From contig JBDTQJ010000001.1 of NCBI GenBank assembly GCA_039932235.1, positions 1 through 46,517 of the forward strand: a stretch of 46,517 nt of DNA. Reading direction: 5' to 3'. The stretch's first letter is position 1, and each line of letters starts with the position of its first letter. The notes under the pieces were generated by a model, which saw only the letters and a list, made by a program, of their open reading frames with translations, did no database searches and was not told the origin of the DNA. Source of the stretch: Chloroflexota bacterium (lineage in GTDB: Bacteria; Chloroflexota; Limnocylindria; QHBO01). The position numbers and the translations under genes are program-made. This document shows positions 21,471 through 23,968 of this stretch, in pieces.

Positions 21471-21515
21471 TGGTGGGCGACACTGGACTCGAACCAGGAC
21501 CTCTTGCATGTCAAG
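21471..21515 (-). repeat. displaced 3' half of tRNA-Val (att-like direct repeat copy)
   Basis: The 45 nt at 21471-21515 equal 23892-23937 (CCA end, T-arm, variable loop, anticodon loop) except for a 1-nt deletion in the T-stem. Similarity stops abruptly at the anticodon loop. Confidence 0.85.
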
Positions 21516-21571
21516 TATCGCGGTGGATGCGTAGTGCCTGTGAGCGTGGGCCGCGTGCGGAACGGGGCTTA

Positions 21572-22070
21572 TTATTGCGGTGACGCCTGCTCCGTCTTCA
21601 TCCAGTACGCCGTCAGCATGCGGGCCGCCTCCCTTGGCACCGCCTTGCACCCGCCATGGTCCTCGGCGTCGTACCAGCACACGCGCCATGCCTTGTCTGC
21701 TGGCAGTTCGCGTAGATCCGTGGCCGTCCACTCGGGCGTGGTCGCTTCCCCCGACCTTGAGGCGCGCGCTCTGATTGTTGCCCAAGGAGTTGCGACCAGG
21801 TACCTGCATGCCTCCGACAACCAGCCTCGTGCCGTGAATGTAGACGTCGTTTCTTAGCGCGCGGAACTCCGCAACTAGGTGCAGCTGGTTGCCCTTGAGT
21901 TCACGGTAGCCCTTGTGAAGCGTCTGAGGCGGCCGCACGTCTATGGCGACGATGCGCCGCCGGGCGAGCCACGCTCTCCGGGTAAAGACGAGCGTCGGTA
22001 TCCCGAGAAGCACCGCGCTCGTGATGGCGACGGCGTTCTGGACAAGCCATTCCTCCACATGGCGGAGCAT
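21572..22070 (-). pseudogene. possible frame-broken gene remnant (TM-anchored N-terminus, then a different frame)
   Basis: The frame of the 21273..22070 ORF looks coding only for about the first 85 codons (MLRHVEEWLVQNAVAITSAVLLGIPTLVF...). From about 21820 the better GC3 and composition move to the 21572..21820 frame (...WTATDLRELPADKAWRVCWYDAEDHGGCKAV...). Confidence 0.25.
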
Positions 22071-22295
22071 AGAGCCGGGGCCGTCCTGCCGCCGCTTGGA
22101 CCACAGATGAGCGCCTACGCGATCCCCGCTTTATCGTGCTAGAGCCACGGAGGACATACGGCAGCCGCCGCTACCCGGGCAGATGACACTGCCTTTAGCC
22201 GCTCTCACAGTGCGGCCGAACCGTTAGGATCGCTCCGTATCGCCCGTCCGGAAGATGGATTCTGGGTGCGACACAGCAGCGAGGGCTACCCCAGC

Positions 22296-22736
22296 ATGTC
22301 AGTGCGGACCGATCGCGACGTCGTTGACCGCTACACCGCGGCGTTGGGCACCGGCGACTTTGAGACCTTGTTTTCCCTGCTCGCGGACGACGTGGTCGAG
22401 GTGTATCCGCAGTCGGGGGAGCGCTTTCGAGGGCGCGAGAGTGTGCGCGCCCTCTGGGAGCAGTATCCAGGGGGCGAGGAGCTGCCGAACCCCGCCATCG
22501 AGGACCTCGTCGGTGTCGAGGATCGGTGGGTGATGACTCCCGTGTTCACCGTGGTGAAGATCGCGGGGGGAGGCCAGGCCTACACGCTCACGGGGCGCAT
22601 CACGTACCCGAACCAAGAAGAGTGGCACCTTATCCAGCTACTGCGCGTCGGCGGCGGTGGCATCACGCACGTGACGTCGTACTTCGCTCCGCCCTTCGAA
22701 CCGGCCGACTGGCGGGCGCCACATCGCGACGGCTGA
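22296..22736 (+). CDS. SnoaL-like / NTF2-fold protein
   Basis: ATG at 22296 (GTG alternative at 22266). N-terminus VVDRYTAALGTGDFETLFSLLADDVV is typical of SnoaL-like polyketide-cyclase-fold proteins. Confidence 0.7.
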   Translation: MSVRTDRDVVDRYTAALGTGDFETLFSLLADDVVEVYPQSGERFRGRESVRALWEQYPGGEELPNPAIEDLVGVEDRWVMTPVFTVVKIAGGGQAYTLTGRITYPNQEEWHLIQLLRVGGGGITHVTSYFAPPFEPADWRAPHRDG

Positions 22737-22759
22737 GGTCAAGAGGATGAGGCGGCTCG

Positions 22760-22969
22760 ATGCAACAAGGCAAGCTCACCCACGCCTGGATCACCGCCAG
22801 CGCCGCGCTGCCGCTCGAGTGGCAGATCATGGGCGTCGTGCGCAGCCCACGCGGCGCTGAGGGCCCGCTGCCTGGAGGGCCGAAGGATGGTGACGAACTG
22901 TCGGGTACGGGCGGTGCGCTTTTTCGTGAGAGCGTGCCGGCCATCGACGCACCGAACGCGGGTCCGTAG
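22760..22969 (+). CDS. small hypothetical protein (69 aa)
   Basis: ATG preceded by a GAGGATGAGG purine tract, with moderate GC3. No family recognised. Confidence 0.3.
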   Translation: MQQGKLTHAWITASAALPLEWQIMGVVRSPRGAEGPLPGGPKDGDELSGTGGALFRESVPAIDAPNAGP

Positions 22970-22996
22970 CTGGCCTGAGGGGCTAGAGTGCAAGAA

Positions 22997-23040
22997 GCCG
23001 GTCGCTCATGCCTCATTCCCCCCGAGACTGAGCGACCGGC
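22997..23040. repeat. perfect 12-bp inverted repeat with 20-nt loop (GCCGGTCGCTCA ... TGAGCGACCGGC)
   Basis: Read directly. Lies in a gap of about 200 bp (about 430 bp if the weakly supported 22760..22969 ORF is not real) without convincing coding signal inside the islet. Smaller hairpins follow it (CCGACC/GGTCGG, CCGCA/TGCGG). Confidence 0.7.
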
Positions 23041-23172
23041 ATTCATGTCCCGACCGCTGCCATGGTCGGACGTGGATCGTACCGGGGCAACCTTGCCAGA
23101 GGCCTTACGCGCATTCCGTCGATCCGCACATTGCGGCAGGACTTGGCGGAGCCGCGATAGGCGTGACGCCTC

Positions 23173-23667
23173 CTACGGAACGTAGTCCAGGGTTGCGGAC
23201 TCCACGATGGCACCAAGCTCATCGAGGACGTTCTCTGGGGTCCCCGCGTAGTACGCCACATCAAAGATTACGAGTTCACCGTTCACATCGAGGACCCATA
23301 GCAGGTCGATCTGGCCGGGGTCTTGGTGGTGGCCCGCAGCGTCCTCTCCCTCAACCAGCGTGCGGAACTCGCCCCCATCGCACTCACTGAACACGGCGTC
23401 ATCCGGCACATGGAGCGTGATCGACTTCCCCGTGTAGCCATCGACCGTGACATCTACTGGCGTCGACGCATCGCGAAAGGCCTGACCGGATAGGGCGGCA
23501 ATGGCTTCATCGACCGTGGCGACCGAAGTGGCGGGCTTTGTGCTTGCCCAATGGCAGGGATCCCCATACACGTACAGGTCGCCCAGTCCAACTAACGTCA
23601 GAGGAGCGTGGGATCGGGAACGGAATCCCGTCCCGCTTCGCGCGGAGGCGGGCGGCGTACTCGGCAT
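23173..23667 (-). CDS. hypothetical protein, probably a 5'-truncated or frameshifted copy of an actinobacterial secreted/lipoprotein family
   Basis: The C-terminal ~140 aa look coding (GDPCHW, VDVTVDGYTGKSITLHVP, IDLLWVLDVNGELVIF). No signal peptide. Upstream coding potential continues in another frame (23785 downward). Confidence 0.45.
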   Translation of the reverse strand: MPSTPPASARSGTGFRSRSHAPLTLVGLGDLYVYGDPCHWASTKPATSVATVDEAIAALSGQAFRDASTPVDVTVDGYTGKSITLHVPDDAVFSECDGGEFRTLVEGEDAAGHHQDPGQIDLLWVLDVNGELVIFDVAYYAGTPENVLDELGAIVESATLDYVP

Positions 23668-23847
23668 CGGTCAGCCACTCCGCGCGGGCCATCTTGTCGG
23701 CGGCATCCTGGAGCCGATCGGCTTGGCTCTTGCGCTGCTGCTTGTCGTCCTCGCCGACAGGTCGAATTAGAACGGGAGGATCCATTCGTCCTTGTCCTGG
23801 AGCACCTCGCCACGCTCGATGAGAGCATCCACGGTTCGGGAAAGGCA

Positions 23848-23870
23848 ATGACCGCCGTTATGGCGGTCAT
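23848..23870 (-). terminator. stem-loop ATGACCGCC-N5-GGCGGTCAT, 22 nt downstream of the tRNA-Val 3' end
   Basis: Perfect 9-bp stem. On the tRNA strand it is followed by TGCCTTTCCC. Lies on the islet side of the att repeat. Confidence 0.4.
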
Positions 23871-23891
23871 TTCGTGCTTAGATCGGTGTTG

Positions 23892-23968
23892 TGGTGGGCG
23901 ACACTGGACTCGAACCAGTGACCTCTTGCATGTCAAGCAAGTGCTCTAACCAGCTGAGCTAGCCGCCC
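23892..23968 (-). tRNA. tRNA-Val (anticodon GAC), CCA encoded
   Basis: Reverse complement folds as a cloverleaf: GGGCGGC-TA-GCTC-AGCTGGTTA-GAGC-A-CTTGC-TTGACAT-GCAAG-AGGTC-ACTGG-TTCGAGT-CCAGT-GTCGCCC-A-CCA (77 nt, one G-U pair in the acceptor stem). Confidence 0.95.

What the first reader, a model, noticed from the sequence alone, without database searches (positions are those of the whole stretch)
21471..23937. 2.4 kb lower-GC islet bounded by a direct repeat of the 3' half of tRNA-Val, with no integrase
21471-21515 repeats 23892-23937 (45 of 46 nt, one T-stem deletion). The repeated part runs from the CCA end through the T-arm and variable loop exactly to the anticodon loop of the intact tRNA-Val(GAC). 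Similarity then ends abruptly.

This is the classic attL/attR footprint of a tyrosine-recombinase element integrated in a tRNA 3' half. The enclosed DNA is visibly less GC-rich than the flanks and sparsely coding. It carries a SnoaL-like gene, frame-broken ORFs and a large inverted repeat. I could read no integrase or excisionase motif in any frame.

It is therefore either a heavily decayed island or a minimal non-autonomous element mobilised in trans. It also carries its own hairpin directly downstream of the reconstituted tRNA.
Basis: seen in the sequence. Interest (0 to 1): 0.6.

Follow-up and report, generated by a model that had tools for sequence, protein, structure and literature searches.

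The report
Integrase-less islet at tRNA-Val
A 2.4-kb piece of foreign, partly broken DNA sits behind the valine tRNA gene of an uncultured soil Chloroflexota bacterium; it is the stripped-down remnant of an ordinary tRNA-targeting mobile element at a very busy insertion hot spot, which is a familiar kind of structure.

Summary
Window 21471-21515 copies the last 46 nt of tRNA-Val(GAC) (23892-23937) with one deleted base. The enclosed 2.4 kb has 64.6% GC against 70.7% for the genome, and it contains no recombinase.

It is an integration scar, not a decayed tandem tRNA. The 70 nt inside the distal copy (21516-21585) are 80-92% identical to a conserved arm next to more than 20 other displaced tRNA-Val halves in related Ca. 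Limnocylindria genomes and soil metagenomes. The flank outside it resembles sequence that follows the intact tRNA in other genomes.

The hairpin after the tRNA is the family-wide tRNA-Val flank and carries a probable arm-type motif, TGACCGCCATAAC.

Relatives with the same neighbours (tRNA-Val and a response-regulator gene) hold 0.34, 0.86 or 3.65 kb of unrelated DNA there. Matching tyrosine integrases lie beside tRNA-Val in a few relatives, including one of the same genus. On one metagenome contig, the islet's last gene, arm and core run directly into such an integrase.

The islet is decayed. One gene is frameshifted, one is truncated, and the distal core is damaged, so precise excision would probably leave a faulty single-copy tRNA. 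I class it as a CIME-like remnant, a new member of a known kind, of modest interest.

The parts
23892..23968 (-). Intact tRNA-Val(GAC). It is the only GAC isoacceptor gene in the assembly. Its last 46 nt (23892-23937) form the attL core.
   Evidence: ARAGORN; Rfam RF00005 68.5 bits; 100% identical across most of 176 family genomes.
23830..23891 (-). tRNA-proximal arm. It holds a conserved hairpin, AATGACCGCC-ATAAC-GGCGGTCATT (23847-23871), that contains the motif TGACCGCCATAAC. It is a probable tRNA terminator and a P'-type arm.
   Evidence: Inverted repeat I4. A 71-nt stretch around it (23825-23895) folds at -22.3 kcal/mol, z -3.7. Homologous flank after tRNA-Val or after displaced copies in many genomes. 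The next 43 nt after the core are identical to the G173 flank.
23601..23848 (-). Short ORF piece with no family. It is not homologous to the N-terminus of the truncated gene that follows it.
   Evidence: Six-frame reading; no Pfam hit and only a weak phrog_37611 hit at E 5e-4; tblastn.
23173..23600 (-). 5'-truncated gene fragment. It is the C-terminal ~140 aa of a ~300-aa membrane-anchored protein family that is full length in relatives.
   Evidence: tblastn 54-65% identity to L030-L033; homology starts at LVGLGD(L/V)YVYGDPCHW, and the full-length homologues have an N-terminal domain and a TM helix.
22997..23040 (.). Perfect 12-bp inverted repeat with a 20-nt loop in non-coding DNA. Function unknown.
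   Evidence: the repeat finder I2.
22760..22969 (+). 69-codon ORF. Its first ~30 codons recur inside other type-B tRNA-Val islands.
   Evidence: tblastn and blastn hits in L067/L055/L076, L061, L080 and G002; alignment.
22266..22736 (+). Intact SnoaL-like (NTF2-fold) cargo gene.
   Evidence: Pfam SnoaL_2 E 1.7e-10. 60% identical full-length homologue in G012, and 39% identical homologue inside the G156 tRNA-Val island.
21572..22070 (-). 'Gene X': a rare ~165-aa membrane-anchored protein gene. It is broken by one frameshift at a C5 run (21748-21752). Its stop codon lies inside the distal arm.
   Evidence: The read-through matches intact P0002 (163 aa, 53% identity, 92% coverage) and P0001 (69% identity). 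tblastx switches frame at 21744-21751.
21516..21585 (-). Distal (P-type) arm, variant B: GTCACCGCAATAATAAG...CCACGCTCACAGGCACTACGCATCCACCGCGATA, abutting the core.
   Evidence: 80-92% identical to arms next to displaced tRNA-Val halves in G101, G124, G156, G066, G098, G057, G154, G083 and about 15 metagenome contigs. Alignment of 23 type-B arms.
21471..21515 (-). Displaced 3' half of tRNA-Val (attR core), 45 of 46 nt with one deleted T-stem base.
21432..21470 (-). Outer flank 'Z' (ACTTCTTGGTCGGTTGAACGTCAGCTAGTCCGCGCGGCT). It resembles the sequence that directly follows the intact tRNA-Val in other genomes, so I infer it is the original attB flank.
   Evidence: BLAST 87% over 87 nt including the core to G116:C322, and 92% over 61 nt to G114, G017, G189 and L071.
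20951..21385 (-). Response-regulator receiver gene. It is the conserved neighbour that marks the far side of the variable interval.
   Evidence: Pfam Response_reg. Orthologues lie downstream of tRNA-Val in G005, G084, G180 and L074/L079.

Best explanation
The islet is what remains of a site-specific integrative element that entered the 3' half of tRNA-Val(GAC). The enzyme was a tyrosine integrase of the class that crosses over in the anticodon loop.

Proposed steps (inferred):
- The original site was tRNA-Val, then flank Z, then the response-regulator gene.
- The incoming DNA carried an attP made of a type-B arm, a 46-nt copy of the tRNA 3' half, and a hairpin-type arm.
- Recombination rebuilt the tRNA from the element's copy (attL, followed by the hairpin arm). 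It pushed the original 3' half 2.4 kb downstream (attR, preceded by the type-B arm and followed by Z).
- Later the recombinase and most functional genes were lost, probably by internal deletion, possibly after tandem accretion of two units.

What remains is a cargo-only, CIME-like remnant: one intact SnoaL-like gene, one frameshifted gene, one truncated gene and non-coding DNA.

The distal core now lacks a T-stem base. An anticodon-loop crossover would therefore leave the chromosome with a defective copy of its only tRNA-Val(GAC). The islet is probably fixed in place.

Shown: the repeat, the arms, the composition, the absence of an integrase, the variability of the site, and the existence of matching integrases elsewhere. 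Inferred: the order of events, the crossover position, and present immobility.
For: 1. Repeat and tRNA.

2. No trace of a tRNA 5' half next to 21516 (9 of 31 matches).

3. The inner 70 nt are a conserved element arm. They are 80-92% identical to about 23 type-B arms, all abutting displaced tRNA-Val halves, in other genera and in soil metagenomes.

4. The outer flank Z matches the flank of the intact tRNA-Val in G116, G114, G017, G189 and L071.

5. The same layout (full tRNA + hairpin ... type-B arm-core-other flank) occurs in L067, G124 and G066/L066.

6. The motif TGACCGC(C)ATAAC recurs in the type-A and type-B distal arms, twice in type-A proximal arms, and in the hairpin.

7. The interval between tRNA-Val and the response-regulator gene is hypervariable: G180 about 341 nt, G005 about 876 nt with a peptidase S51 gene, window about 2.5 kb, G084 about 3.65 kb.

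8. GC z-score -3.05 and tetranucleotide distance at the 99.5th percentile.

9. Integrases of one family (PF00589 plus a SAM-like N-domain) sit directly after tRNA-Val in G020, G045, G046 and same-genus G007. A fragment sits in the G190 array.

10. On contig L090, a 53%-identical intact homologue of gene X, its arm and a perfect core run straight into a proximal arm and such an integrase. Window 21471-21889 is colinear with it at 69% nucleotide identity.

11. Decay: frameshift at a C5 run, truncated gene, core deletion.

12. tRNA-Val(GAC) is single-copy in the assembly.

13. An identity block that starts at the anticodon loop is Islander's site class A, with 2083 of 3919 islands (PMC4383910).
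Against: - No clean empty site (tRNA-Z-regulator) was found in any genome. The nearest relative, G005, has another insert and no displaced copy.
- No integrase has been seen physically linked to a type-B arm. All integrase-linked junctions have type-A or intermediate arms.
- The hairpin flank is homologous over 62 nt to what looks like the native tRNA flank in island-free loci (G006, G016, G022, G084, G157). Its presence next to the full tRNA could therefore also reflect a later rearrangement or recombination rather than an element-borne arm.
- The assembly is a MAG, 85% complete in 234 contigs. An integrase elsewhere in the real genome cannot be excluded, and the C5 frameshift could be an assembly error.
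Confidence: 0.8

Rival explanations
1. The islet is a still-functional non-autonomous cassette. It keeps both att arms and is excised and re-inserted by an integrase supplied in trans by a transient element. It would be one cassette of a family-wide, integron-like tRNA-Val cassette system.
For: - Both arms are conserved.
- 48 distinct displaced copies were found in the fetched loci. Nearly all have perfect 46-nt cores and unrelated, often single-gene cargo: G101 737 bp with a lipoprotein gene, G124 about 885 bp with a GNAT gene, G066 1.9 kb with one 614-aa protein gene.
- Only one of the first 50 or so fetched loci has an integrase.
- Several islet-bearing genomes have only the two Xer-type PF00589 genes (G167, G154, G173, G098, G101).
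- A matching integrase exists in the same genus, in G007.
Against: In this window the distal core has a deletion, the arm motif is degenerate (TCACCGCAATAAT against TGACCGCCATAAC), and two of the cargo genes are broken. The assembly has no non-Xer integrase. Excision through the anticodon loop would install the damaged T stem into the only tRNA-Val(GAC).
Confidence: 0.15
2. The repeat is the remnant of a tandem duplication of the tRNA-Val gene whose 5' half has decayed. It would not be an integration scar.
For: Two tRNA-Val(GAC)-like genes 3.6 kb apart exist in G103. Type-A arms show a weak resemblance to the D-arm (15-16 of 31).
Against: The window's arm matches the tRNA 5' half at 9 of 31 positions, which is chance level. 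The same arm is conserved next to displaced halves that bound unrelated cargo in many genomes. The boundary falls exactly at a canonical integrase crossover site.
Confidence: 0.02
3. The interval was brought in by homologous recombination. A whole-segment replacement between the conserved tRNA-Val and response-regulator anchors came from another lineage, so the att scar was inherited from the donor rather than made in this genome.
For: The tRNA is 100% conserved and the regulator gene is a recurrent neighbour. The window's hairpin flank is closer to genus g2 and g32 genomes (95-100%) than to its own genus (87-91%). Replacement of flexible islands by double crossover is described in PMC7771536.
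Against: Homology with G005 resumes only at the regulator's start codon. Flank Z is not shared with G005. This route still needs an original integration in the donor, so it changes where the event happened, not what the structure is.
Confidence: 0.1
4. Assembly artefact: a chimeric join of two strains or loci at the 46-nt repeat in a metagenome-assembled genome.
For: The genome is a fragmented MAG. Contigs of relatives often break at tRNA-Val.
Against: Both outer flanks are syntenic with G005 on one contig (SufE and regulator on the left; tRNA, peptidase-like gene and MurJ on the right). Both junctions have the arm types seen at real islands.
Confidence: 0.03

Closest known systems
CIME (cis-mobilisable element) of streptococcal ICE/IME systems, as defined in PMC5704250
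   Same: [quoted passage not shown] It sits at a site where elements accrete in tandem. Arrays of 3-4 units are seen in relatives, for example G190, G179 and L070.
   Different: No conjugative or mobilisable parent element is known here. The phylum is different (Chloroflexota). The window's attR core is damaged, so it may no longer be cis-mobilisable. Mobilisation has not been shown.
tDNA genomic islands as mapped by Islander (PMC4383910); anticodon-loop 'site A' class of Williams 2002
   Same: It has a regenerated tRNA plus a displaced 3' fragment in direct orientation. The identity block starts at the anticodon loop. The composition is foreign.
   Different: Islander requires a non-Xer integrase gene inside the island. 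This islet has none, so it would be filtered out.
tRNA-direct-repeat gene cassettes / additive flexible genomic islands (Ca. Actinomarinales, PMC7771536)
   Same: [quoted passage not shown] Close relatives have different content at the same position. No integrase is mentioned for those cassettes in the paper's main text (the word does not occur there).
   Different: Here conserved arm sequences on both sides of the core, and linked integrases in some genomes, tie the cassettes to one definable integrase/att family. The host is a high-GC soil Chloroflexota, not a streamlined marine actinobacterium.

Membership tests
tDNA-integrated genomic island (Islander definition) | Intact tDNA plus a displaced tDNA fragment in the same orientation on the same replicon | tested here: met
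   tRNA-Val 23892-23968 and a 45/46 copy of its 3' 46 nt at 21471-21515, same strand.
tDNA-integrated genomic island (Islander definition) | The fragment boundary falls at a canonical crossover sublocation (anticodon loop, T loop or T/acceptor junction) | tested here: met
   Identity starts one base 5' of the anticodon loop, which is site A (PMC4383910).
tDNA-integrated genomic island (Islander definition) | A non-Xer tyrosine integrase gene inside the island | tested here: not met
   No PF00589 or PHROG hit, no tblastn hit, and no H-x-L-R-H motif in 21300-24000. The only two hits in the genome that clear the PF00589 threshold are Xer-like, on C28 and C148; a weak integrase-like tblastn match on C210 (E 0.005) was not followed up.
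tDNA-integrated genomic island (Islander definition) | Insert absent or different in relatives; foreign composition | tested here: met
   G005, G180 and G084 have different DNA between the same neighbours. GC z-score -3.05 and tetranucleotide distance at the 99.5th percentile. No perfectly empty site was found.
CIME (cis-mobilisable element) | Retains attL and attR | tested here: met
   Both cores are present. The distal arm is 80-92% identical to family arms and the proximal hairpin arm is conserved. The attR core has one deletion.
CIME (cis-mobilisable element) | Has lost integration and transfer genes through decay of an autonomous element | tested here: inconclusive
   No integrase is present. 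Gene X, arm and core are colinear with an att junction that abuts an integrase on L090, which suggests descent from an integrase-bearing element. The parent element and any transfer genes are unknown.
CIME (cis-mobilisable element) | Can be mobilised in cis after accretion with an incoming element | not testable with these tools
This needs excision PCR or an integrase assay.
Additive flexible genomic island / tRNA-direct-repeat cassette | [quoted passage not shown] | tested here: met
   48 distinct displaced copies in the fetched loci. Islets range from 0.74 to more than 13 kb with unrelated cargo.
Decayed tandem tRNA gene | Remnant of the tRNA 5' half next to the partial copy | tested here: not met
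   9 of 31 matches to the 5' half. The arm is an element arm shared with unrelated islets.
Integron-type cassette array | A resident integrase gene with an adjacent primary site, and cassettes with a common recombination site | tested here: not met
   A common site (arm plus core) exists, but most genomes have no resident integrase at the locus.

The most novel reading that the evidence does not exclude
The many integrase-less islets behind tRNA-Val in Ca. Limnocylindria may not be independent wrecks. They may be a working cassette system. In that case small cargo units, each bounded by a conserved arm (type A or B), a 46-nt tRNA core and a TGACCGCCATAAC-bearing arm, would be shuffled in and out of the tRNA-Val site by a rare integrase family supplied in trans. 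That would be functionally analogous to an integron with a tRNA gene as its platform. The window's islet would be an ageing cassette of that system.
Probability: 0.2. Interest if true: 0.55.

Novelty: new member of a known kind. Interest (0 to 1): 0.3.

Why it matters
By itself this is routine genome plasticity: a tRNA-linked islet with decayed cargo. Its modest value is comparative.

- It documents that one tRNA-Val(GAC) gene is the dominant insertion hot spot across a poorly studied class of soil Chloroflexota.
- It defines two conserved arm types and a shared probable arm-binding motif.
- It links them to one tyrosine-integrase family.

This gives annotators a way to recognise integrase-less islets that tools such as Islander discard. 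It also gives experimenters a defined att/integrase pair from an uncultured lineage.

Tried and rejected
- Integrase or excisionase remnants in the islet. Pfam, PHROGs, permissive tblastn with the G020 integrase and a catalytic-motif scan all found nothing.
- A weak integrase-like hit in the G066 islet (E 0.003) lies antisense within a 614-aa membrane-protein gene, so I judged it spurious.
- Homology between flank Z and the G005 tRNA flank. Only a shared 10-mer was found, and it is not significant against shuffles.
- Exact 46-nt core in viral contigs: no hit. No phage attP could be named.
- Rfam on the islet: only the tRNA. The conserved 22769-22861 stretch is better explained as the N-terminus of a small protein.
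- Terminator and promoter consensus scans gave nothing above shuffles.
- PF00589 search on metagenome loci through the genome search is not supported.
- Xer-mediated (IMEX-like) insertion. I considered it because several islet-bearing genomes have only XerC/D and the arm motif contains CATAA. I did not pursue it, because linked dedicated integrases exist.
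Full report
**1. Observation**

The window holds one tRNA gene, tRNA-Val(GAC), on the minus strand at 23892-23968. Its last 46 nt (23892-23937) recur at 21471-21515 with a single deleted base in the T stem.

In the whole 2.19-Mb assembly these are the only two copies. 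The BLAST E-value for the partial copy is 1e-15. The copy covers the CCA end, the T arm, the variable loop, the 3' anticodon stem, the complete anticodon loop and one base beyond. The 31 nt further on match the tRNA 5' half at only 9 positions.

The enclosed 2,376 nt have 64.6% GC. Genome windows of equal size average 70.7 +/- 2.0% (z -3.05, 0.4th percentile). The tetranucleotide distance from the genome mean is at the 99.5th percentile. The 'large' inverted repeat is a 12-bp stem.

**2. Content of the islet**

Reading from the tRNA end:
- A 10-bp hairpin at 23847-23871.
- A short orphan ORF piece.
- At 23173-23600, the C-terminal ~140 aa of a ~300-aa membrane-anchored protein family that is full length in relatives. 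This is a truncated gene, not a simple frameshift.
- Non-coding DNA with the 12-bp inverted repeat.
- A 69-codon ORF whose N-terminus recurs in other islands.
- An intact SnoaL-like gene at 22266-22736.
- On the minus strand at 22070-21572, 'gene X'.

A read-through of gene X across a C5 run at 21748-21752 matches two intact proteins over its whole length (53% and 69% identity). These are the only relatives among 5.8 billion proteins.

No recombinase is present. Pfam, PHROGs, tblastn with the nearest tRNA-Val integrase and a catalytic-motif scan are all negative. In the assembly, which is 85% complete, only two genes clear the PF00589 threshold, and both are Xer-like. A weak integrase-like tblastn match on contig C210 (E 0.005) was not followed up.

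**3. Organism and relatives**

Record titles of matching contigs name Chloroflexota / Candidatus Limnocylindria.

The tRNA is 100% identical in most of 176 family genomes. In the nearest relative, G005 (about 85% DNA identity in the flanks), the same neighbours are present: SufE and a response-regulator gene on one side, and tRNA-Val, a peptidase-like gene and MurJ on the other. Between the regulator and the tRNA lie about 876 nt with an unrelated peptidase S51 gene and no displaced tRNA half.

Other genomes with the regulator downstream of tRNA-Val have different interval lengths:

| Genome or contig | DNA between tRNA-Val (or displaced core) and regulator |
|---|---|
| G180 | about 341 nt |
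| G005 | about 876 nt |
| This window | about 2.5 kb |
| G084 | about 3.65 kb |
| L074 / L079 | regulator about 950 nt after a displaced core |

The interval is therefore hypervariable between conserved anchors. No perfectly empty version of this exact site was found.

**4. The arms show an integration scar of a defined element family**

I collected 48 distinct displaced tRNA-Val halves from related genomes and soil metagenomes. On their island side they fall into two conserved arm types.

- Type A (22 copies) reads CGTGACCGCATAACTGAGG.GTTTTCGCTCGGCC..CCACGCTC.TAGCACAGCGCTCAGGCGGAAATG, then the core.
- Type B (23 copies) reads TGACCGCCATAAC, then about 25 nt, then CCACGCTCACGGCCACTATGCA..G.C.GCGAT(A/G), then the core.

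The window's 21516-21585 is a type-B arm, 80-92% identical to those of G124, G101, G156, G066, G057, G154, G083 and many metagenome contigs. These arms bound unrelated cargo. The resemblance is therefore to element ends and not to a tRNA gene, which rejects the decayed-tandem-tRNA alternative.

Outside the window's displaced copy, flank Z (21432-21470) resembles the sequence that directly follows the intact tRNA-Val in G116, G114, G017, G189 and L071. That is what an original attB flank should look like.

**5. The hairpin**

The sequence after the window's intact tRNA...GAGCACGAAATGACCGCCATAACGGCGGTCATTGCC..., is not private to the islet. It follows tRNA-Val in at least 35 family genomes. It also follows terminal displaced copies in G001, G167, G173 and others. 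In island-free loci it looks like the native terminator.

It contains the motif TGACCGC(C)ATAAC, which also occurs in both distal arm types and twice in the proximal arms of type-A islands. I read this motif as an arm-type binding site. That is an inference.

Other type-B islets have the same layout as the window: full tRNA plus hairpin-type arm, then cargo, then type-B arm, core and another flank. Examples are L067, G124 and G066/L066. The simplest reading is therefore that the element's attP carried this arm.

The window's hairpin flank is closer to genomes of other genera (95-100%) than to its own genus (87-91%). This fits horizontal origin. A later recombination that restored a native-type flank cannot be excluded, and this remains the main loose end.

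**6. Where the integrase is**

A tyrosine integrase (PF00589 plus a SAM-like N-domain) starts about 40-100 nt after tRNA-Val in G020, G045 and G046. It also does so in G007, which belongs to the window's genus and has the orthologous right flank. A fragment lies in the 48-kb, four-unit array of G190. All of these have type-A proximal arms.

On metagenome contig L090, an intact homologue of gene X, its arm and a perfect core with no tRNA 5' half run straight into a proximal arm and an integrase of this family. Window 21471-21889 is colinear with that stretch at 69% nucleotide identity. L090 is either an attP or a tandem junction. Either way it ties the window's distal module to an integrase-bearing element.

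Most islands, however, lack an integrase. Among about 70 loci examined before contig L090 and the integrase-bearing loci of G007, G046 and G190 were fetched, only G020's had the catalytic motif. Several islet-bearing genomes have only XerC/D-type genes. No integrase was seen next to a type-B arm.

**7. Mechanism and present state**

The identity block that begins at the anticodon loop is Islander's site class A (PMC4383910). With a crossover there, excision would give the chromosome the 3' part of the attR copy. In this window that copy lacks a T-stem base.

tRNA-Val(GAC) is single-copy in the assembly, and the only other valine tRNA found is CAC. Precise excision would therefore probably be harmful. 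Taken together with the frameshift, the truncated gene and the degenerate arm motif (TCACCGCAATAAT), this points to a decayed and probably fixed remnant. It may be a fusion of two accreted units after internal deletion.

I estimate about 0.8 that it is an integration-derived, integrase-less remnant, and about 0.15 that it can still be mobilised in trans.

**8. Comparison with known systems**

It works like a CIME, an element that has lost integration and transfer genes but keeps attL and attR (PMC5704250). It also resembles the tRNA-direct-repeat cassettes of additive flexible genomic islands (PMC7771536).

It meets the structural criteria of an Islander island except the integrase requirement. 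Earlier notes of this scan describe similar integrase-less tRNA-Val islets in many other lineages, which underlines that the kind is common.

The new elements are the host lineage, the definition of two arm types with a shared motif, and the link to one integrase family. The broader possibility that these islets form a working, trans-served cassette system is not excluded (about 0.2).

**9. Limits**

- The genome is a fragmented MAG.
- No viral contig carries the core.
- The homology of flank Z to the G005 flank was tested and is not significant.

Noticed in passing
L087/L088 (G190:C17:20001-53000): A 48-kb stretch behind tRNA-Val has at least three further displaced cores (about 28 kb apart in total), all with type-A arms. 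Only the most distal unit keeps an integrase fragment. This is a large accretion array.
   Followed up: partly
L090:2566-2790: Gene X homologue, arm, perfect 46-nt core (no tRNA 5' half), proximal arm and integrase N-terminus lie on one 3.2-kb contig. This is either the attP of a free element or a tandem junction. The upstream genes are small, with one LuxR-type HTH.
   Followed up: partly
L027:1687-2548 (G101:C6): The smallest islet seen: 737 bp between a perfect 48-nt displaced copy and the tRNA. It holds a single lipoprotein-like gene and a type-B arm.
   Followed up: partly
window 22769-22861: This stretch is conserved at 82-85% nucleotide identity in several other tRNA-Val islands. It is bracketed by a perfect 10-bp inverted repeat (22798-22807 / 22850-22859). 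It is most likely the N-terminus of a small protein (..LTHAW..ASAALPLEW..MGVV..), but an RNA or DNA site is not excluded.
   Followed up: partly
L048, L046, L049, L085, L088 (5' side of tRNA-Val): The motif (T)GAGCACGAAA(T/C)G, which begins the hairpin flank downstream of tRNA-Val, also lies 2-14 nt upstream of the tRNA's 5' end in several genomes (G114, G116, G017, G007, G190). It does not in the window. The meaning is unknown.
   Followed up: no
window 20951-21385 and relatives: A stand-alone response-regulator receiver gene is a recurrent downstream neighbour of tRNA-Val across genera (G005, G084, G180, L074/L079), although its own left flank differs.
   Followed up: partly
window 21572-22070: Gene X belongs to a very rare family, with only two homologues among 5.8 billion proteins. 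Both come from soil-type metagenomes, and one lies next to msrA with no att site (L091).
   Followed up: partly
L039:2982-4471 and 7235-7654 (G156:C1): A 6.1-kb type-B island carries an ECF sigma factor gene with an adjacent 291-aa ORF of unknown family (no Pfam hit) and a SnoaL-like gene 39% identical to the window's. Similar cargo therefore recurs in this island family.
   Followed up: no
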